Origin: Candidatus Aminicenantes bacterium
GTDB taxonomy: Bacteria; Acidobacteriota; Aminicenantia; Aminicenantales; UBA4085
NCBI GenBank assembly: GCA_963783665.1
Contig: CAWANZ010000007.1
Location: forward strand, 92,793-156,792
Length of the DNA stretch: 64,000 nt
Direction of reading: 5' to 3'
Shown here: positions 58,840 to 64,000 of the stretch, piece after piece
How positions within the stretch are numbered: the stretch's first letter is position 1
How the letters are laid out: the number at the start of each line of letters is the position of its first letter
Translations under genes and position numbers: made by a program
Notes under the pieces: generated by a model
Told to the model about the DNA's origin: nothing
What the model saw: the letters and a program-made list of their open reading frames with translations, nothing else
Database searches by the model: none

Positions 58840-59259
58840 TTGGAGATGAGCATGTTCAAAATGTTGTCCGAAAGAAAATGGTTGGCGTTGATTGGAGGAT
58901 TGGCGGCCGTCCTTCTGGCGCTGCCCGGATTCGCGGCCCAAAGCGCGGCCGGCCAGGATCCGACAAAGGTTTATGAGAAGTTCCTGGGCAAATATGAATT
59001 CGACTTAAGCGCGATGGGCGGCGGCTCTCGAATCTTTGAATTCTATGTAAAGGACGGCGCCTTTTGGATCGAGTACGGCTTCACCTCGCCGGGGGAGCTG
59101 AAGGCGGTGACGAATACCGTCGATGAATTCACTTTCGACGAACCCGATGACGGGCTGATTAAGATCACCTTTCAGAAAGATACCGAAGGCAATTATTCGA
59201 AGTGTCGTTTCGTTGTCGAATCCCTGGGCGTGGATATCGTCGGCGATAAGATGAAGTGA
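58840..59259 (+). CDS. secreted hypothetical protein
   Basis: Signal peptide ...LIGGLAAVLLALPGFAAQ. The likely start is ATG 58852 (GGAG upstream). Confidence 0.55.
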   Translation: MEMSMFKMLSERKWLALIGGLAAVLLALPGFAAQSAAGQDPTKVYEKFLGKYEFDLSAMGGGSRIFEFYVKDGAFWIEYGFTSPGELKAVTNTVDEFTFDEPDDGLIKITFQKDTEGNYSKCRFVVESLGVDIVGDKMK

Positions 59260-59422
59260 ACGGAGCCGGATGATTCCGTCGCCGTCGTCAAGCTCCGAAT
59301 CATTTTTCTCCTCTTATTTAAATAGAATTCATCAGAATTCCGAGTTGTTGAATATTGAAGAGCGCCGCTGGAGCCTTCAGCGCAGTACTAAAATAACTAT
59401 AAACGCCCCGCCAAATCTTTTT

Positions 59423-59451
59423 TTGACTTGAGGCGGCTGTTTCCCTATACT
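59423..59451 (+). promoter_or_regulatory. strong sigma70-like promoter of the PqqD/precursor transcription unit
   Basis: TTGACT (59423-59428), exactly 17 nt, TATACT (59446-59451), preceded by an A/T-rich stretch. Confidence 0.6.
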
Positions 59452-59643: not shown

Positions 59644-59922
59644 ATGATAATAACACTCGCGACGATCGTGAAGAAAAACGAGGATGTCATCGCCGGCAGC
59701 ATCGACCGGGAAATCGTGGCGATGAATATTCAGACCGGCAAATGCTTCCAATTAAACGAAACCGGAGGCCGCACCCTGGCCCTTCTCGATCAACCCCGTT
59801 CAGTCGGGGATTTGTGCGAGGAGATGGCCGCCGGATACGATATCGACAGGGAAATCTGCCGGAGGGATGTCATCGAATTCATCCAGGCCGTGGAAGAATT
59901 TGGCTTGATCAAGGTCGAATGA
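59644..59922 (+). CDS. PqqD-family peptide chaperone (stand-alone RiPP recognition element)
   Basis: 92 aa. The pattern ...DREIVAMNIQTGKCFQLNETGGRTLALLDQPRSVGDLCEEMAAGYDIDREICRRDVIEFIQAVEEFGLI matches the PqqD / lasso-B1 wHTH layout. GGGAGAG RBS. Confidence 0.85.
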   Translation: MIITLATIVKKNEDVIAGSIDREIVAMNIQTGKCFQLNETGGRTLALLDQPRSVGDLCEEMAAGYDIDREICRRDVIEFIQAVEEFGLIKVE

Positions 59923-60003
59923 CCGGCCCCTCTGACCCCAAGCGCCTCTTGCTATTTAAGAATTTATACCGTATCTTATAACGAGAGAGCGGGAGGTTTG
60001 CAA

Positions 60004-60150
60004 ATGGAAAATAAGAAAGATCAGAAAGAAGAGGGCCCTCGTCAATCGCTTCCGAAATGGGAAAAGCCTTCGGTGAAGGAAATCGATATTACAGTGGCCT
60101 CCGGATTGACCTTTACCTCCGTCGGCACTGATAATGTAATGTACAGTTGA
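60004..60150 (+). CDS. candidate RiPP precursor peptide, 48 aa (absent from the supplied ORF track)
   Basis: Own translation: MENKKDQKEEGPRQSLPKWEKPSVKEIDITVASGLTFTSVGTDNVMYS. GGGAGG lies 7 nt upstream of the ATG. It sits 81 nt after the PqqD gene. The WEKPSVKEIDI leader resembles PqqA (WxKPxhxxhxI) and lasso (YxxPxL...T-x) leaders. Confidence 0.7.
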   Translation: MENKKDQKEEGPRQSLPKWEKPSVKEIDITVASGLTFTSVGTDNVMYS

Positions 60151-60244: not shown

Positions 60245-61273
60245 TCACTCTTCGTCGATATCGAAATCGTTCGTTTGCCGGTGTCCCATCGCCGTTACGA
60301 TCTCCTCGAGAGTGAACCATTGGTCGAATTTTTGAAAATCCAAGAACACTTCGCATGAGGCGCAAGGAATTCCGGCGCGGGCGGGGGCTGCTCCCATGAG
60401 CATTTGTCTCGCGTATCGCATTGCGCCGTTGTTGATCTCCTCCGCGAATCTTCCGCCCAGGGCGTTGTCGGCGTACACCCCGCTCACATTGTGACTGCAA
60501 CCGAGCAGCCGACCGTCCCAGCTGACCTGCGGAGACCTCCAGATCTCGAGACAGATGTTGCGCATGTAAATCTTGCCGGTCTTTTCCCGGAACGACTCCG
60601 TATCGTGAAATCCGATCATCCGCGTCAGGGCTTCATGATCGCGCACCGGGAGGAATCCCTTAAAGACATTAAGCTTGATGAAGAGTTCCATGCCCAGGGC
60701 TTTGGCCAAGACCGCGATCTTGCCGATCTCGTGTTCATTGTGTTCGAAGGGGATGAACTGGAGGATCAATCGAGGCCGGCCGCTTCGGCTCCGGTTTTTC
60801 AACTCGTTGATCTTTTGAACGTTGTTCAGGACTTTTCTCAGGTTCCCCCCGACCCGGTATGTTTGATACGTATCTTGCGTCGATCCGTCGATCGACACTT
60901 TCAAAAGCGCAACGCCGTACTTGACGAGGGCTTCCAAGGCTTCGTCGGAGGCGTCATTGAGGTTCGAGCCTTGTTTGATTGTGATCGTCACGCCCTTGTC
61001 ATGCGCGTATTTCAACATGGCGGGCAGCTCAGGATTGAGAAACACTTCGCCCGAATTTCCGATTTCGATGGCCCGGATTTGGGGATTTTCATCGATGAAT
61101 TCGATGAAGCGGGAGGCCGGCATAATCCCGCTCCCGATGAATGGCCTTCCCTTCCGGTGCCGGACGGGGCAGAGCAGGCAGCGGAGCTGACACCGGCTGC
61201 TGACATCAAGCCGTGCCGATTGCGGGTAGACCCGCAGGCCGTCAGCGCTTAATCGTTCTTCTCTGCCGGTCAT
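60245..61273 (-). CDS. radical SAM enzyme with partial SPASM/twitch-type C-terminal Cys domain
   Basis: CQLRCLLCP (Cx3Cx2C) about 30 aa from the N-terminus and the GGE-like motif GNSGEVFLNP. C-terminal CLEIWRSPQVSWDGRLLGC (Cx12Gx4C) followed by CASC. Start taken at the ATG overlapping the upstream stop (ATGA). An alternative in-frame ATG lies at 61291. Confidence 0.85.
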   Translation of the reverse strand: MTGREERLSADGLRVYPQSARLDVSSRCQLRCLLCPVRHRKGRPFIGSGIMPASRFIEFIDENPQIRAIEIGNSGEVFLNPELPAMLKYAHDKGVTITIKQGSNLNDASDEALEALVKYGVALLKVSIDGSTQDTYQTYRVGGNLRKVLNNVQKINELKNRSRSGRPRLILQFIPFEHNEHEIGKIAVLAKALGMELFIKLNVFKGFLPVRDHEALTRMIGFHDTESFREKTGKIYMRNICLEIWRSPQVSWDGRLLGCSHNVSGVYADNALGGRFAEEINNGAMRYARQMLMGAAPARAGIPCASCEVFLDFQKFDQWFTLEEIVTAMGHRQTNDFDIDEE

Positions 61274-62436
61274 TCCGCTTTGTTCAGACATGTCTTCGAG
61301 ATCTCCTTGACCGTTCGGGGTGAATCGTATCCCGAGTATTTTGCGGAAAAGGCGGCGGCCTTTTCCCGAAGGCCGGCCGAAGCGGCCGTGCAGTCGAACT
61401 TTTCCCGGACACGTTCGCTTTTGTCGAAAAAGCTTGCGAATTCGCATAGCCCCTGCTTTTGCAGCCGGTAGGCCAGGAGGGTTTGCTCGAGCTGTTCCGG
61501 ACAAAGGAGCAAGGGCTTGCCCGCAAGGAGCAGGCGGGTAGTCGTCGTCAGGCCTCCGTGCGTGACGGCCAGGTCGCATTCGGACGCGGCTCGTGAAAGA
61601 TCAATCGGTGAAGCGTGGATGCGGATCGTGGGCGATTCCATCATGTGCCGTTCGGATTCGGGCATATTCTTGACGTATCCGATCGCGGATAGTCCGAGCC
61701 TTCCGATATGATCGATGAAATCCTTGAGACAGCGATTGGCCATGCTCATATAGAATAATACCCTGGGCGTGCTTCCTTCCGGCCAGCGATAGTCGGCCTC
61801 AGTTCCACCGTCCAGAATCGGCCCCCAATACCGATCTTCCACCCGGTTTTCATAAGAATCGGTCTCGCGAAAGATCGTCAAGAAGCGTTGCGCGCCGCGA
61901 AAAATGTCAGCGACGGAATCGATCGAAGCCTCCACGCTTCGCAGCCTTTCCACGAGCATCGCTTCCGCCTCCGCAAGACGCATCTCCGGCAGAGAAAGCC
62001 AGGGATGGAGGCTGGGCATCGGGACTGCGGCCGGAGGGACGGTGAACCCTGTTCCGATAATCCCGCGGGGAATGGCGGAGGTCAAGGCGGACAGGAGGGC
62101 GGTGGGGGCATAATCCGAAAGGACATAATCAGGCTTGATCGCACGGAAGCGCTCCATCCACCATGCGAAATGAGATCGGAACAGCGCCTCGTCCCAGTAG
62201 CCGTTGCCCCAGATGCATTGTGCGAAGTTCAGCGAAAAACCGGTTTTGCGAATGATCCAGGCCGGGGTTTGCTCGATTTCAACGCCGAGCCCCTCCATGG
62301 CGACGCGGGCTTTAGCCGCATCATGACAAAAGACAACGACCCTGTTGCCGTCGGCAGTCAATTCCCGCGCGATCGGTTTGAGGCGAAGGATATGTCCCCA
62401 TCCCCCTCCCATCTCATTGGCGAAAACGATTTTCAT
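61270..62436 (-). CDS. GT-B fold glycosyltransferase (GT1/GT28, MGT/UDP-glycosyltransferase-like)
   Basis: MKIVFANEMGGGWGH N-terminal Gly-rich motif. C-terminal nucleotide-sugar motif THGGLTTTTRLLLAGKPLLLCP..EQ. Start moved to ATG 62436. Confidence 0.75.
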   Translation of the reverse strand: MKIVFANEMGGGWGHILRLKPIARELTADGNRVVVFCHDAAKARVAMEGLGVEIEQTPAWIIRKTGFSLNFAQCIWGNGYWDEALFRSHFAWWMERFRAIKPDYVLSDYAPTALLSALTSAIPRGIIGTGFTVPPAAVPMPSLHPWLSLPEMRLAEAEAMLVERLRSVEASIDSVADIFRGAQRFLTIFRETDSYENRVEDRYWGPILDGGTEADYRWPEGSTPRVLFYMSMANRCLKDFIDHIGRLGLSAIGYVKNMPESERHMMESPTIRIHASPIDLSRAASECDLAVTHGGLTTTTRLLLAGKPLLLCPEQLEQTLLAYRLQKQGLCEFASFFDKSERVREKFDCTAASAGLREKAAAFSAKYSGYDSPRTVKEISKTCLNKAE

Positions 62437-62456
62437 CGTCGGGGCCTGAATGATTC

Positions 62457-63440
62457 CTATTGATTCATGTGAGAATCGAGAATGATGCGGCAGAGTTCCT
62501 CCGGCCGCGGCGGCTCGGCGGGAAGACGGATTTCCTCCACCTTCACTCCGGCCGCAAGCGTCTGCAACAAATGAAAAAGGCGAAGCCGGTTTCCGGTATC
62601 CCCCATGGAATGGAGACAAAAGACGTGTTCCACAAGAGCCTGAAATTTGGCCGCGCCCGTGAGGTTTTCGAAAACGAGGGATGAATTCTGCGTCCGGCGC
62701 AGGATGAATATCTTCTTTAAAGAGGAAGGGACCTTCTTGAAATTAGTCCGGGCCAGGACGGCGATTTTATTCAAGGCCGGTTTTACCGGACCCGCAATCG
62801 TATGCTCGAATTTGATGTTCCGTAAAGCGTCGCCCCAAACCCTGATTTCAGGTATTCCCGGGACTACCCGGGGGCCGTCATCCTGAAAATCAATCACCGC
62901 CACATTGTCATCCAAGTATAGAAATCCGGCATTTAGAAAAGCGACGGCCATGGTGGACTTGCCGGCCCCGGATTCGGCGCAGATCGTGAAACACGACTCT
63001 CCGCGGCAGAGCGTGCTGCCGTGGAGGGGAAGCAGCCCGAGCTGGTGGAATATCCCGGCCAGAGCCCATCCCAGCAGCATTTGCCTGATCACGCCGGGAT
63101 TTCCCCCGGGGAGCCGTTCGACCGTTATGGTCTTGCCTTCTGAGATGAGAATCGTGGCGCTTTTCGACCCGCGGAGAAGGATCCTGCCCGGCGAGGCTTC
63201 AATCCGCACGGAGTCCGGCGGGACGTAGTCTGGGCCGAAAATCACGCCATGCCGGATCTCGATATCGGCCGCTCCGGAAGCAGGAGCGGCGGGCCACTGG
63301 GGAAAACGGATTTCAGATGAAAAATTGAGTCCGTAGGCTTGGTAGAAGTATGGATCGCCCGAAAAGAGCTCATCGTCCATCAGCAAACCGCCAGCCGCGC
63401 CGTCACGGCTCCGGTCAGGCATGGTGGAATTCGATTCCAT
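62457..63440 (-). CDS. HPr-kinase-like (HprK-related) P-loop serine kinase
   Basis: Walker A in the HprK C-domain context: LHGSTLCRGESCFTICAESGAGKSTMAVAFLNAGFLYLDDN. Size and layout resemble RiPP-associated HprK-related kinases. The start is uncertain (63440, 63422 or 63380). Confidence 0.75.
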   Translation of the reverse strand: MESNSTMPDRSRDGAAGGLLMDDELFSGDPYFYQAYGLNFSSEIRFPQWPAAPASGAADIEIRHGVIFGPDYVPPDSVRIEASPGRILLRGSKSATILISEGKTITVERLPGGNPGVIRQMLLGWALAGIFHQLGLLPLHGSTLCRGESCFTICAESGAGKSTMAVAFLNAGFLYLDDNVAVIDFQDDGPRVVPGIPEIRVWGDALRNIKFEHTIAGPVKPALNKIAVLARTNFKKVPSSLKKIFILRRTQNSSLVFENLTGAAKFQALVEHVFCLHSMGDTGNRLRLFHLLQTLAAGVKVEEIRLPAEPPRPEELCRIILDSHMNQ

Positions 63441-63996
63441 AAAACCTCGCCGGCATGAAGCCGCGATGGTTCAAGTTATGCGGGATGCGGGCTCCCATGA
63501 AGGCAAAGCCCGGGGCGTTGACGGTCTTCCCCAGGATTTCAAGGGAACCCTCGACGAGCACGATCAACGTCTCATGGTCATCACGGTGCAACGGGATCGC
63601 ATTGCCGGATGATAGCTTGTGATAGCGCACGTTCAAGCGGGGAAGAAAGCGCGTCGGACCGGAATAGACTTCGATTGTTCCGGGCTCTTCGTCCGATAAG
63701 GCCGCCTGGCGGGCGCCCCGGCGATAAAGAAAGTGCAGCCCTGCCTTGCCGTTCGCGAACGGTGGGCTTTTACGCCATCTGATATGCAGATACTCGGCCG
63801 GTTCATCGCCGGAATTTTGGGAATTATGCGGAATTGTCGAGTCCAGAAAAAAAAGCGAACCGCTCTCAGGAGCGGACGTCCGCTTTTCCCCAGAATCGGG
63901 GTCGCGGAAGGTGAATTGAATATTGTCGGAAAGGGTAATGTGCATCTCTTCGTGATCGTGGGTGTGAATTTCATGGGGGGCGACGTTTGCGCTCAT
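63415..63996 (-). CDS. cupin-domain protein (two cupin-like halves)
   Basis: HEIHTHDHEEMHITL (HxH...E metal motif) in the N-terminal half and PLHRDDHETLIVLVEG in the C-terminal half. Overlaps the kinase ORF by 26 nt. Its upstream region lies outside the window. Confidence 0.6.
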   Translation of the reverse strand: MSANVAPHEIHTHDHEEMHITLSDNIQFTFRDPDSGEKRTSAPESGSLFFLDSTIPHNSQNSGDEPAEYLHIRWRKSPPFANGKAGLHFLYRRGARQAALSDEEPGTIEVYSGPTRFLPRLNVRYHKLSSGNAIPLHRDDHETLIVLVEGSLEILGKTVNAPGFAFMGARIPHNLNHRGFMPARFYGIEFHHA

Positions 63997-64000
63997 GACC

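What the first reader, a model, noticed from the sequence alone, without database searches (positions are those of the whole stretch)
61270..63440. Kinase and glycosyltransferase pair matched to a precursor ending in Ser
- The kinase has the HprK C-domain P-loop (AESGAGKST).
- HPr-kinase homologues in paeninodin-type clusters phosphorylate the C-terminal Ser of the precursor. Here the precursor ends ...MYS.
- A GT-B enzyme is encoded immediately downstream of the kinase.
- This raises two possibilities: a phospho-glycosyl (sugar on phosphate) modification, or O-glycosylation of the Ser/Thr-rich core. The order and targets of the reactions cannot be read from the sequence.
Basis: partly seen in the sequence, partly recalled or inferred. 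Interest (0 to 1): 0.65.

Follow-up and report, generated by a model that had tools for sequence, protein, structure and literature searches.

The report
Kinase plus sugar-transferase lasso-peptide tailoring pair
Two adjacent genes, a serine kinase and a sugar-adding enzyme, belong to a horizontally acquired gene cluster for a very short ring-shaped (lasso-type) peptide that always ends in Tyr-Ser. The two enzymes have stayed together throughout one branch of these clusters in anaerobic bacteria, and no one has studied what they build on that peptide end.

Summary
- **Kinase:** 62457-63440(-) encodes a 327-aa HprK-like kinase. It has the P-loop AESGAGKST and invariant H140/K161/D177/D178. It is 30% identical (E 4e-33) to the kinase of a Bacillus pseudomycoides psm (pseudomycoidin-type) locus.
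- **Glycosyltransferase:** 61270-62436(-) encodes a 388-aa GT1-family (GT-B) enzyme. The model has pLDDT 88.7, and the Foldseek top hits are natural-product GT1s.
- **Precursor:** 60004-60150(+) ends ...D43-N-V-M-Y47-S48.

The cluster continues past the window end with a bicupin and a lasso cyclase. In relatives the order is cupin-kinase-PqqD-precursor-GT-rSAM, so kinase-GT adjacency is peculiar to this genome.

In a tree of 97 such kinases, the 23 whose loci carry this GT form one branch (100/96). None of the other 73 loci has the GT. All 25 precursors of that branch end D-x-x-x-Y-S.

Phosphorylation of Ser48 is well supported by homology. The GT's acceptor is unresolved. No ring Ser/Thr position is conserved. 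The invariant candidates are Tyr47-OH and the Ser48 phosphate. A PsmN-type transferase coexists with the GT in the most complete relatives.

I rate this a new variant of kinase-tailored lasso peptides.

The parts
62457..63440 (-). HprK-like RiPP serine kinase (327 aa), paeninodin/pseudomycoidin type
   Evidence: ORF. HprK_rel_A E 1.5e-7. 30% identity, E 4e-33, to the psm-locus kinase. 25-member orthologue alignment with invariant H140, K161, D177, D178. Model pLDDT 84, PEPCK/HprK-type P-loop fold.
62952..62978 (-). Walker A / P-loop AESGAGKST (residues 155-163)
   Evidence: S157, G158, G160, K161, S162 and T163 are invariant in the clade.
62901..62918 (-). YLDDNV: the Asp-Asp metal-binding motif (D177, D178)
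   Evidence: It corresponds to D158/D159 of PsmK, whose double mutation abolished phosphorylation (PMC6993621). The BLAST register is offset by one residue.
63015..63032 (-). LPLHGS with His140, 21 residues before K161
61270..62436 (-). GT1-family (GT-B) glycosyltransferase, 388 aa
62392..62409 (-). N-terminal glycine loop GGGWGH, with invariant His15 as the presumed general base
   Evidence: Invariant G10, G11, G14, H15. The N-terminal stretch aligns to the equivalent loop of MurG, CalG3 and plant UGT/CGT structures. The assignment as base rests on general GT1 knowledge.
61483..61563 (-). Nucleotide-sugar binding signature THGGLTTT...CPEQLEQ (residues 292-318)
   Evidence: Invariant G295, P313, Q315, E317, Q318. 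This region carries the matches to MGT/MJ1255 models and to the YjiC/OleD structures.
60245..61291 (-). Radical SAM enzyme (348 aa, CX3CX2C at residues 34-41); its start overlaps the GT stop by 22 nt
   Evidence: The same 19-22 nt overlap occurs in L006, L007, L009, L015, L016 and L017.
63415..64000 (-). Bicupin (248 aa; runs on to position 64161 beyond the window); its stop overlaps the kinase start by 26 nt
   Evidence: It is followed upstream by the 650-aa lasso cyclase homologue at L002:5024-6976, equivalent to window positions 64231-66183 (NF033535, 367 bits).
59644..59922 (+). PqqD-type RRE (lasso B1), 92 aa
   Evidence: PF05402 E 6e-18; lasso_PqqD_Bac E 2.4e-17.
60004..60150 (+). 48-aa precursor: leader W19-E-K-P-S-V..., core ending D43-N-V-M-Y47-S48
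   Evidence: It is homologous to 24 other clade precursors and to the precursor (PsmA-type) ORF of the psm locus L057.
60142..60147 (+). Codons of Tyr47 and Ser48, the invariant C-terminal pair
59369..59393 (+). Left copy of a perfect 25-nt direct repeat that brackets the whole 7.5-kb cluster (right copy 7494 nt downstream, beyond the window)

Best explanation
The kinase and the GT are two tailoring enzymes of a horizontally acquired lasso-type RiPP cluster of about 7.5 kb.

**Cluster layout.** On the minus strand: cyclase C, bicupin, kinase, GT1, radical SAM. On the plus strand, converging on them: PqqD/B1 and the precursor.

**Proposed course.**
- Inferred: B1 binds the WxxPxV leader.
- Inferred from homology: the kinase uses ATP to phosphorylate the side chain of the invariant C-terminal Ser48 of the still-linear precursor. 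PadeK, ThcoK and PsmK do this.
- Inferred: the cyclase closes an N-terminus-to-Asp43 macrolactam. Only a five-residue tail, N-V-M-Y-S, remains.
- The GT1 is a soluble Leloir enzyme dependent on an NDP-hexose. It has a His15/acidic dyad and an E-Q sugar-binding motif. It adds a sugar to the invariant C-terminal Tyr-Ser module.

**GT acceptor.** I consider a hydroxyl acceptor, chiefly Tyr47-OH, somewhat more likely than the Ser48 phosphate. A positionally variable ring Ser/Thr is least likely. The GT probably works together with the translationally coupled radical SAM enzyme. A bulky phospho/glycosyl C-terminal cap may replace the steric plug that such a short tail cannot supply.

**Shown versus inferred.** Shown here: homology, folds, catalytic motifs, gene linkage, co-inheritance and precursor conservation. 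Inferred: every chemical step, the order of steps and the acceptor.
For: **Kinase.**
- 30% identity, E 4e-33, to the kinase of a B. pseudomycoides psm locus.
- H140, K161, D177 and D178 are invariant in 25 orthologues. This matches the essential His-Lys-Asp-Asp set of lasso kinases (PMC9266682).

**Precursor.**
- The leader W-x-K-P-x-[VL]-x-E-[LI]-D is homologous to that of the precursor ORF (PsmA type) in the psm locus L057.
- Ser is C-terminal in 25/25 clade precursors and 37/39 non-clade precursors.

**GT.**
- Profile hits to solved GT1s at E 2e-9.
- GT-B fold by Foldseek, E about 1e-15.
- Invariant GGGWGH and P-x-Q-x-E-Q motifs.

**Co-inheritance.**
- In a 97-kinase tree, the 23 GT-linked kinases form one branch (100/96). 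This needs 1 change, and 0/500 label shuffles score as low. None of the 73 other loci has the GT.
- Every GT-clade locus with enough flank carries the kinase.

**Tyr at -2.**
- 25/25 in the clade versus 7/39 outside it.
- This includes L117, which has the GT and kinase but no rSAM or cupin, and whose precursor ends ...YSYS.

**Other.**
- D-x-x-x-Y-S is fixed, while the distance from the leader cut to the Asp varies from 8 to 11 residues.
- The cyclase homologue scores 367 bits on the lasso cyclase model.
- Island character: 25-nt perfect direct repeats flank the cluster. An orthologue is present in only 1 of 41 related genomes.
Against: - There are no biochemical data for any member of this clade.
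- HprK-like RiPP kinases do not always target the C-terminus. LppK phosphorylates Ser3 of its core (PMC13381572).
- The window's cluster lacks a B2 leader peptidase anywhere in the assembly, which is 77.5% complete. It also lacks an exporter and a PsmN-type gene.
- At the leader/core junction, the precursor has Ser-Gly|Leu-Thr where all relatives have Thr-x|[S/A/N]-Gly. This copy may therefore be impaired.
- Tyr invariance could equally serve the rSAM, the cupin or the kinase.
- Ring sizes of 10-11 and a 5-residue tail are outside known lasso geometry, so the product may be an unthreaded lariat.
- Two relatives (L008, L009) show no cyclase within the sequenced flanks, about 5-10 kb on each side.
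Confidence: 0.55

Rival explanations
1. Phospho-glycosyl cap. The GT transfers its sugar directly onto the phosphate of phospho-Ser48. This gives a Ser-O-P-O-sugar diester as in pseudomycoidin, with the GT doing the job of PsmN.
For: - In pseudomycoidin, hexoses sit on the phosphate of the C-terminal Ser. [quoted passage not shown]
- The GT is strictly nested within one kinase clade, so there is never a GT without the kinase.
- The window's cluster has no PF14907 gene. The genome's only copy lies in a sugar-nucleotide/polysaccharide locus on another contig.
Against: - The most complete relatives (L010, L095/L115; weakly L015/L107) carry both the PsmN-type gene and the GT, so the GT is not a simple replacement.
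- To my knowledge, GT1 enzymes glycosylate hydroxyl, amine, thiol or carbon nucleophiles with a His base, and a phosphate acceptor has no precedent in this family.
- The invariant His15 fits a hydroxyl acceptor better.
Confidence: 0.25
2. Ring O-glycosylation. The GT glycosylates one or more Ser/Thr side chains of the Ser/Thr-rich ring, independently of the kinase.
For: - The cores are rich in Ser/Thr (window: T36, T38, S39, T42). Many relatives have Thr at core position 4.
- A lasso peptide O-glycosylated on Ser is known: the davasins, made by IgtG (PMC11912497).
Against: - No ring Ser/Thr position is conserved across the 25 precursors, while the GT is conserved in all loci.
- IgtG is a membrane GT2 with a DXD motif, unrelated to this soluble GT1.
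- This option does not explain why the GT occurs only with one kinase clade.
Confidence: 0.12
3. The kinase phosphorylates a residue other than Ser48 (for example a core Ser/Thr near the cut site, as LppK does), and Ser48 is conserved for another reason.
For: LppK, an HprK-like RiPP kinase, polyphosphorylates Ser3 of its core and not a C-terminal Ser (PMC13381572). Most clade cores start with Ser.
Against: - Core position 1 is not invariant (S, A, N, K, L), whereas the C-terminal Ser is 25/25.
- The window kinase clusters with lasso-linked kinases whose precursors end in Ser.
- Lasso position 1 must be a free amine for ring closure.
Confidence: 0.1
4. In this genome the cluster is a decaying or incomplete island. 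The genes are intact, but no mature product is made, because there is no B2 peptidase, no exporter and an altered cleavage junction.
For: - No PF13471/B2 homologue is linked to the cluster, and tblastn finds none in the assembly.
- Thr(-2) is replaced by Ser, and the next three junction positions also differ from all relatives.
- The B1-precursor module is relocated and inverted relative to all relatives.
- The cluster is sporadic among relatives.
Against: - All seven ORFs are intact, with catalytic motifs, overlapping gene junctions and a good precursor RBS.
- Many relatives also lack B2 nearby.
- Pseudomycoidin is made without B1/B2 in E. coli (PMC6993621).
- The assembly is only 77.5% complete.
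Confidence: 0.15

Closest known systems
Pseudomycoidin (psm) cluster of Bacillus pseudomycoides: PsmK kinase plus PsmN (PF14907)
   Same: - Homologous kinase (30% identity, E 4e-33).
- Homologous leader (EWQKPVLEVLDMNMT versus KWEKPSVKEIDITVAS).
- Precursor also ends Tyr-Ser (...VKYS).
- C-terminal Ser is phosphorylated and then carries hexose(s).
   Different: - psm has no GT1, no radical SAM and no cupin.
- Its sugar step depends on PsmN, which the window's cluster lacks.
- Its core is 22 aa with a 13-residue tail, against 14 aa with a 5-residue tail here.
Paeninodin (pade) and ThcoK/SyanK kinase-tailored lasso peptides
   Same: - HprK-like kinase with the His-Lys-Asp-Asp motif acting on the C-terminal Ser of the linear precursor.
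- Split B1/B2 architecture.
- Asn-synthetase-like cyclase (PMC9266682).
   Different: - Only (poly)phosphorylation has been demonstrated.
- No glycosyltransferase, rSAM or cupin.
- Hosts are Bacillota/Pseudomonadota, not anaerobic Desulfobacterota-type bacteria.
- B2 is present.
Davasins (igt cluster, Streptomyces davaonensis): glycosylated lasso peptides
   Same: A dedicated glycosyltransferase decorates a lasso peptide with hexoses (PMC11912497).
   Different: - IgtG is a membrane GT2 fused to a deacetylase, with a DXD motif.
- It acts on a Ser hydroxyl of the mature lasso.
- No kinase is involved.
- It is unrelated in fold to the GT-B enzyme here.
GT1 natural-product glycosyltransferases (OleD, YjiC/YojK, VinC, CalG1-4, the vancomycin Gtf enzymes)
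   Same: - Same two-Rossmann GT-B fold (TM 0.6-0.7).
- N-terminal Gly-His loop and C-terminal NDP-sugar motif.
- Several act on phenolic hydroxyls, and the Gtf enzymes act on a cross-linked peptide.
   Different: - Only 13-19% identity.
- The acceptor domain carries clade-specific invariant motifs (GTGFTxPP, PMPSLHPW).
- The enzyme is embedded in a ribosomal-peptide cluster.
Linear polyphosphorylated peptides (lppA-K-B-S-D-N; Popov et al. 2026, PMC13381572)
   Same: RRE plus HprK-like kinase plus PF14907 set derived from the same toolkit. Those loci are often rich in glycosyltransferases.
   Different: - No cyclase.
- A signal-peptidase-type leader protease.
- The kinase targets Ser3 of the core.
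- The final product is unknown.

Membership tests
HprK-like lasso-peptide Ser kinases (PadeK/ThcoK/SyanK/PsmK) | Sequence homology to a characterised member | tested here: met
   30% identity over 246 aa, E 4e-33, to the kinase of a B. pseudomycoides psm locus. It sits inside a 97-member tree of such kinases.
HprK-like lasso-peptide Ser kinases (PadeK/ThcoK/SyanK/PsmK) | Walker A P-loop and the conserved His-Lys-Asp-Asp catalytic set | tested here: met
   AESGAGKST; H140, K161, D177 and D178 invariant in 25 orthologues. The motif is as described in PMC9266682.
HprK-like lasso-peptide Ser kinases (PadeK/ThcoK/SyanK/PsmK) | Encoded with a lasso cyclase, a PqqD RRE and a precursor ending in Ser | tested here: met
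   Cyclase at L002:5024-6976 (367 bits on NF033535). B1 at 59644-59922. Precursor ends YS.
HprK-like lasso-peptide Ser kinases (PadeK/ThcoK/SyanK/PsmK) | Phosphate transfer to the C-terminal Ser of the linear precursor | not testable with these tools
   Needs an in vitro or heterologous assay with wild-type and S48A precursor.
HprK/P fold (PEPCK-like P-loop kinases) | Fold of the nucleotide-binding domain | tested here: inconclusive
   The model (pLDDT 84) matches PEP carboxykinases at E 1e-9, TMq 0.55. From general knowledge, HprK/P shares this fold, but no HprK/P chain was in the top 50. The sequence profile found no HprK/P in the PDB. The NCBIfam HprK_rel_A hit is far below its cut-off.
GT1 family (GT-B) NDP-sugar glycosyltransferases | Two-Rossmann GT-B fold | tested here: met
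   Foldseek finds 453 PDB hits at E<=1e-3. The top 50 are all GT1 enzymes, E about 1e-15 to 1e-14.
GT1 family (GT-B) NDP-sugar glycosyltransferases | C-terminal nucleotide-sugar binding signature and N-terminal Gly-rich loop with His | tested here: met
   Profile hits on YjiC, OleD and UGT109A1 across residues about 280-365 (E 2e-9). N-terminal hits on MurG, CalG3 and plant UGTs. GGGWGH and P-x-Q-x-E-Q are invariant.
GT1 family (GT-B) NDP-sugar glycosyltransferases | Glycosyl transfer; identity of donor and acceptor | not testable with these tools
   Needs an enzyme assay with UDP/TDP-sugars on phospho- and dephospho-peptide.
Pseudomycoidin-type phospho-glycosylation system (kinase + PsmN) | PF14907 nucleotidyltransferase-like gene in the cluster | tested here: not met
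   None in the cluster. The single genomic copy (C3:15196-16365) lies among UDP-glucose dehydrogenase, epimerase and LptD genes. It is present in relatives L010 and L095.
Canonical lasso peptide cluster (A, B1, B2, C) | B2 transglutaminase-like leader peptidase (PF13471) | tested here: not met
   There is no hit near the cluster. One borderline hit (27.5 bits) lies in a 670-aa ORF on contig C3 and was not examined. tblastn with two clade B2 proteins finds nothing in the assembly, which is 77.5% complete. B2 is present in relatives L006, L010, L015, L017 and L095.
Canonical lasso peptide cluster (A, B1, B2, C) | Thr at leader position -2 and Asp/Glu at core position 7-9 | tested here: inconclusive
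   In gap-free register with relatives, the cut falls at G34|L35. That gives Asp at core position 9 but Ser, not Thr, at -2. Relatives keep Thr(-2) but place the Asp at position 8, 9, 10 or 11.
Davasin-type lasso glycosylation (IgtG) | Membrane GT2 with DXD motif | tested here: not met
   The enzyme here has a GT-B/GT1 fold, and its matches are to soluble GT1 enzymes. IgtG is described in PMC11912497.

The most novel reading that the evidence does not exclude
The kinase-GT1 pair, together with the coupled radical SAM enzyme and bicupin, builds a previously unseen C-terminal cap on the invariant D-x-x-x-Tyr-Ser end. One form would be a sugar joined directly to phospho-Ser48 by a Leloir GT-B enzyme without any PsmN-type helper. 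Another would be a glycosyl-Tyr next to phospho-Ser that the radical SAM enzyme then cross-links. This cap would act as the steric lock for ultra-short peptides with macrolactam rings of 8 to 11 residues, outside the known lasso geometry.
Probability: 0.18. Interest if true: 0.8.

Novelty: new variant of a known kind. Interest (0 to 1): 0.58.

Why it matters
Kinase-tailored lasso peptides are known. How the sugar reaches the phosphate in pseudomycoidin is still unresolved: PsmN may be a new kind of glycosyltransferase, or it may be a helper for a host GT.

This clade offers a natural experiment. It has a recognisable GT1 that has been inherited strictly together with one kinase lineage. That GT1 occurs with a PsmN-type gene in some clusters and without one in others, including this window.

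Working out what the pair does would:
- settle which enzyme makes the phosphate-sugar or Tyr-sugar bond;
- add a soluble GT-B enzyme to the RiPP glycosylation toolbox;
- show how a 14-residue peptide with a five-residue tail can be held in, or released from, a lasso fold.

A complete version of the cluster probably exists in a cultured bacterium: NCBI lists its GT protein for Desulfatiglans anilini. The question is therefore directly testable.

Tried and rejected
- **Kinase profile against PDB sequences:** no HprK/P or other significant hit. Foldseek returned only PEP carboxykinases in the top 50. The 'HprK' label therefore rests on homology to the psm kinase, on NCBIfam HprK_rel_A, and on PF07475/PF27840 annotations of remoter relatives.
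- **B2 peptidase and PsmN-type gene in the window's own genome:** no B2 was found. The only PF14907 gene lies in a polysaccharide/sugar-nucleotide locus, and I rejected it as a cluster member.
- **Bicupin homologue search:** this was meant to reveal GT-rSAM-cupin triads outside kinase clusters. It returned only seven close orthologues and was uninformative.
- **Remoter GT homologues (23-32% identity):** these lie in non-RiPP contexts, for example beside a UbiA prenyltransferase. They say nothing about the acceptor.
- **Unannotated genes next to the cyclase-less cassettes L008/L009:** NCBIfam gave no hits.
- **GT as a passenger gene:** rejected because of its strict co-inheritance with the kinase and its conserved overlap with the rSAM gene.
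- **Acceptor pocket of the GT model:** I could not inspect it, because model coordinates are not exposed to the Python box.

Full report
**1. What is in the sequence**

- The stretch 61270-63440 holds two minus-strand genes.
- The upstream one (62457-63440, 327 aa) carries AESGAGKST at residues 155-163.
- The downstream one is listed as a 449-aa ORF from a TTG at 62619. Alignment with ten orthologues puts the real start at the ATG at 62436, giving 388 aa. That start lies 20 nt after the kinase stop codon.
- The 48-codon precursor (60004-60150, plus strand, GGGAGG ribosome-binding site) ends D43-N-V-M-Y47-S48.

**2. The surroundings**

The pair sits in a tight minus-strand operon.
- The bicupin gene (63415 to about 64161) overlaps the kinase start by 26 nt.
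- The GT stop overlaps the start of a radical SAM gene (61291-60245, CX3CX2C) by 22 nt.
- I fetched the contig beyond the window end. It shows a 650-aa asparagine-synthetase-like protein directly upstream of the bicupin. Its best NCBIfam match is the lasso isopeptide cyclase model (367 bits).
- On the plus strand, converging on this operon, lie a PqqD-type RRE (lasso B1; E 2.4e-17 on lasso_PqqD_Bac) and the precursor.

Some expected genes are missing.
- No B2 leader peptidase, exporter or PF14907 gene is linked to the cluster.
- tblastn with clade B2 proteins finds nothing in the assembly, which is 77.5% complete. One borderline PF13471 hit (27.5 bits) lies in a 670-aa ORF on contig C3; I did not examine it.
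- The only PF14907 gene lies among UDP-glucose dehydrogenase, epimerase and LptD genes on another contig.

**3. The kinase**

- NCBIfam gives only a sub-threshold hit to HprK_rel_A.
- The database search found about 30 orthologues at 46-66% identity. It also found remoter relatives that carry Pfam Hpr_kinase_C and ScmC annotations.
- A scan of representative genomes recovered the classical Bacillota clusters. These include a Bacillus pseudomycoides locus with the psm gene order C-A-K-B1-B2-N-D.
- The window kinase is 30% identical to that kinase over 246 residues (E 4e-33).
- In 25 orthologues, H140, K161, D177 and D178 are invariant.
- Reviews of paeninodin-type kinases name a His-Lys-Asp-Asp set as essential. 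The PsmK D158A/D159A mutant is inactive (PMC9266682, PMC6993621).
- The AlphaFold model (pLDDT 84) resembles PEP carboxykinases. From general knowledge this is the fold class of HprK/P, but no HprK/P chain itself was retrieved. I therefore rate that single test inconclusive.

**4. The glycosyltransferase**

- Pfam hits are below threshold.
- A profile of the orthologues hits solved GT1 enzymes (UGT109A1, YjiC, OleD) at E 2e-9 to 8e-8.
- Remoter homologues carry EryCIII-like_C, Glyco_tran_28_C and UDPGT annotations.
- The model (pLDDT 88.7) matches GT-B natural-product glycosyltransferases at E about 1e-15. These include the kitacinnamycin GT, VinC, OleD, CalG1, YojK, SpnP and GtfD.
- Invariant residues include the N-terminal GGGWGH15 loop, an acidic residue in the D108-Y-A-P-T-A-L-L strand, and the C-terminal H-G-G...P-x-Q-x-E317-Q318 signature.
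- By general knowledge of GT1 enzymes, these correspond to the His/Asp general-base dyad and to the NDP-hexose site.
- The acceptor half carries strongly conserved motifs specific to the clade (GTGFTxPP, PMPSLHPW).

**5. Comparative evidence for a functional pair**

Gene order in relatives:
- Contexts of eight kinase orthologues show one cassette: (cyclase)-bicupin-kinase-PqqD-precursor-GT-rSAM(-second rSAM).
- A GT orthologue that NCBI lists for Desulfatiglans anilini lies in the same cassette.
- The fullest versions add an ABC exporter, a PF14907 gene and B2 (L010, L095).
- Kinase-GT adjacency is thus unique to this genome, where the PqqD-precursor module has been moved and inverted.
- The GT's constant partner is the rSAM gene, with a 19-22 nt overlap in seven loci.

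Distribution of the GT:
- tblastn across 80 kinase loci from representative genomes finds the GT, rSAM and cupin only with the Desulfobacterota-type kinases. None occurs in the Bacillota, Pseudomonadota or Bacteroidota clusters.
- A GT-seeded metagenome scan gives the reverse result. Every GT-clade locus with enough flank carries the kinase.

Kinase tree:
- In a maximum-likelihood tree of 97 distinct kinases, the 23 with a linked GT form one branch (100/96 support). This needs one change, and 0 of 500 label shuffles score as low.
- Within it the GT is present 23/23.
- The rSAM is missing in L117. The cupin is missing in the deep-branching loci L018, L116 and L117, and also in L024, which is not in the tree.
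- Among the tailoring genes, the GT is therefore the kinase's most faithful companion.

Caveats:
- Part of the sample was ascertained through the GT.
- Only the best 80 of 348 kinase loci were examined.

**6. The precursor end**

- All 25 distinct clade precursors end D-x-x-x-Y-S. L117 ends ...D-G-A-Q-Y-S-Y-S.
- Among 39 precursors of other kinase-linked lasso loci, 37 end in Ser but only 7 have Tyr before it.
- The leader motif W-x-x-P-x-V-x-E-h-D is shared with the precursor (PsmA-type) ORF of the psm locus L057.
- The distance from the conserved Thr-x cut to the Asp is 8, 9, 10 or 11 residues. The Asp-to-C-terminus distance never varies.
- No ring Ser/Thr position is conserved.
- The window's own precursor is odd at the junction. 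It has S33-G34|L35-T36 where relatives have T-x|[S/A/N]-G. In gap-free register, Asp43 is still core residue 9.

**7. Mechanism**

Kinase step:
- Phosphorylation of Ser48 on the linear, B1-bound precursor is the best-supported step. The support is homology, retained catalytic residues and the invariant Ser.
- My estimate for this step is about 0.7.
- One caution applies: LppK, a related RiPP kinase, targets Ser3 of its core (PMC13381572).

- Ring O-glycosylation lacks a conserved acceptor.
- Sugar on phosphate has the pseudomycoidin precedent. There, however, the step needs PsmN. PsmN-type genes coexist with the GT in the fullest clade members, so the GT is an addition and not a substitute. 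A phosphate acceptor would also be unprecedented for GT1, to my knowledge.
- A third option is O-glycosylation of the invariant Tyr47. This fits the His-base chemistry of GT1 enzymes. It also fits the clade-specific invariance of Tyr, which holds even in L117, a locus without rSAM or cupin.
- The Tyr could instead serve the rSAM, the cupin or the kinase.

I therefore commit only to 'a sugar on the C-terminal Tyr-Ser module'. I rank Tyr-OH somewhat above the phosphate.

With only five residues after the ring, a bulky C-terminal cap is a plausible substitute for the usual steric plug. The pseudomycoidin authors proposed such a lock (PMC6993621).

**8. Status in this genome**

- A perfect 25-nt direct repeat brackets the 7.5-kb cluster.
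- tRNA-Asp lies about 650 nt upstream of the left repeat copy.
- Only this genome among 41 relatives has the kinase orthologue.
- The cluster therefore looks like a recently acquired island.
- The missing B2, exporter and PsmN-type gene, together with the altered junction, leave a real chance (about 0.15) that this copy makes no mature product.
- Against that, all ORFs and motifs are intact, and pseudomycoidin matures without B1/B2 in E. coli (PMC6993621).

**9. Novelty**

- Reported before: kinase-tailored lasso peptides, phosphate-linked hexoses, and a GT2-glycosylated lasso peptide (PMC9266682, PMC6993621, PMC11912497).
- Bioinformatic surveys also mention kinases, nucleotidyltransferases and GT2 genes near lasso clusters (PMC7533575).
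- My searches found no description of a GT1 enzyme co-inherited with a lasso kinase, or of this rSAM/bicupin-bearing clade with 13-16-residue cores.
- Earlier notes of this scan on other genomes describe the same clade. I re-derived their main claims independently here.
- I rate this a new variant of a known kind, of moderate to good interest.

Noticed in passing
window 59369-59393 and L002:7656-7680 (C7:159655-159679, beyond the window): A perfect 25-nt direct repeat, TGGAGCCTTCAGCGCAGTACTAAAA, sits 7494 nt apart and brackets exactly the RiPP cluster. No integrase was seen. It looks like an att-type or target duplication of an island.
   Followed up: partly
L002:7183-7279 versus L002:8087-8183: A 97-nt fragment (97% identical) of the neighbouring 289-aa gene (my guess from the sequence: EcsC-like; no family hit) is duplicated just inside the right end of the island, next to the cyclase gene. 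It may be a scar of the insertion or of recombination.
   Followed up: no
window 59644-60150 versus loci L006-L017, L095: The PqqD-precursor module is relocated and inverted in this genome. In most relatives it lies between the kinase and the GT on the same strand. Here it has its own promoter-like site (TTGACT-17-TATACT at 59423-59451).
   Followed up: partly
precursors of L012/L013, L109, L110/L111, L118, L016, L024, L102: Within the clade, the distance from the conserved Thr-x leader cut to the conserved Asp is 8, 9, 10 or 11 residues. The Asp-x-x-x-Tyr-Ser end is fixed. Either ring sizes exceed the known 7-9, or the cut site shifts.
   Followed up: partly
L008 and L009: Two cassettes (bicupin-kinase-PqqD-precursor-GT-rSAM) show no lasso cyclase within the sequenced flanks (about 5-10 kb on each side). 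The cyclase may be dispensable or encoded elsewhere.
   Followed up: partly
L117: A deep-branching relative combines the GT1 and kinase with a GSCFA-family protein and an O-methyltransferase instead of rSAM and cupin. Its precursor ends ...DGAQYSYS.
   Followed up: partly
window 58840-59259(+) and L002:11208-11603(-): Two paralogous small secreted proteins (139 and 131 aa, no family hit) lie on either side of the island.
   Followed up: no
L014:11429-11653: The precursor ORF of this relative runs on for 74 aa, apparently through a frameshift just before the D-x-x-x-Y-S end. This could be an assembly error or an inactivated copy.
   Followed up: no
G000:C3:15196-16365 (L099:8188-9531): The genome's only PF14907 (PsmN-type) gene is 38% identical to the clade's cluster-borne copy. 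It sits among UDP-glucose dehydrogenase, NAD-epimerase, GFO/IDH/MocA and LptD genes, far from the RiPP cluster.
   Followed up: partly
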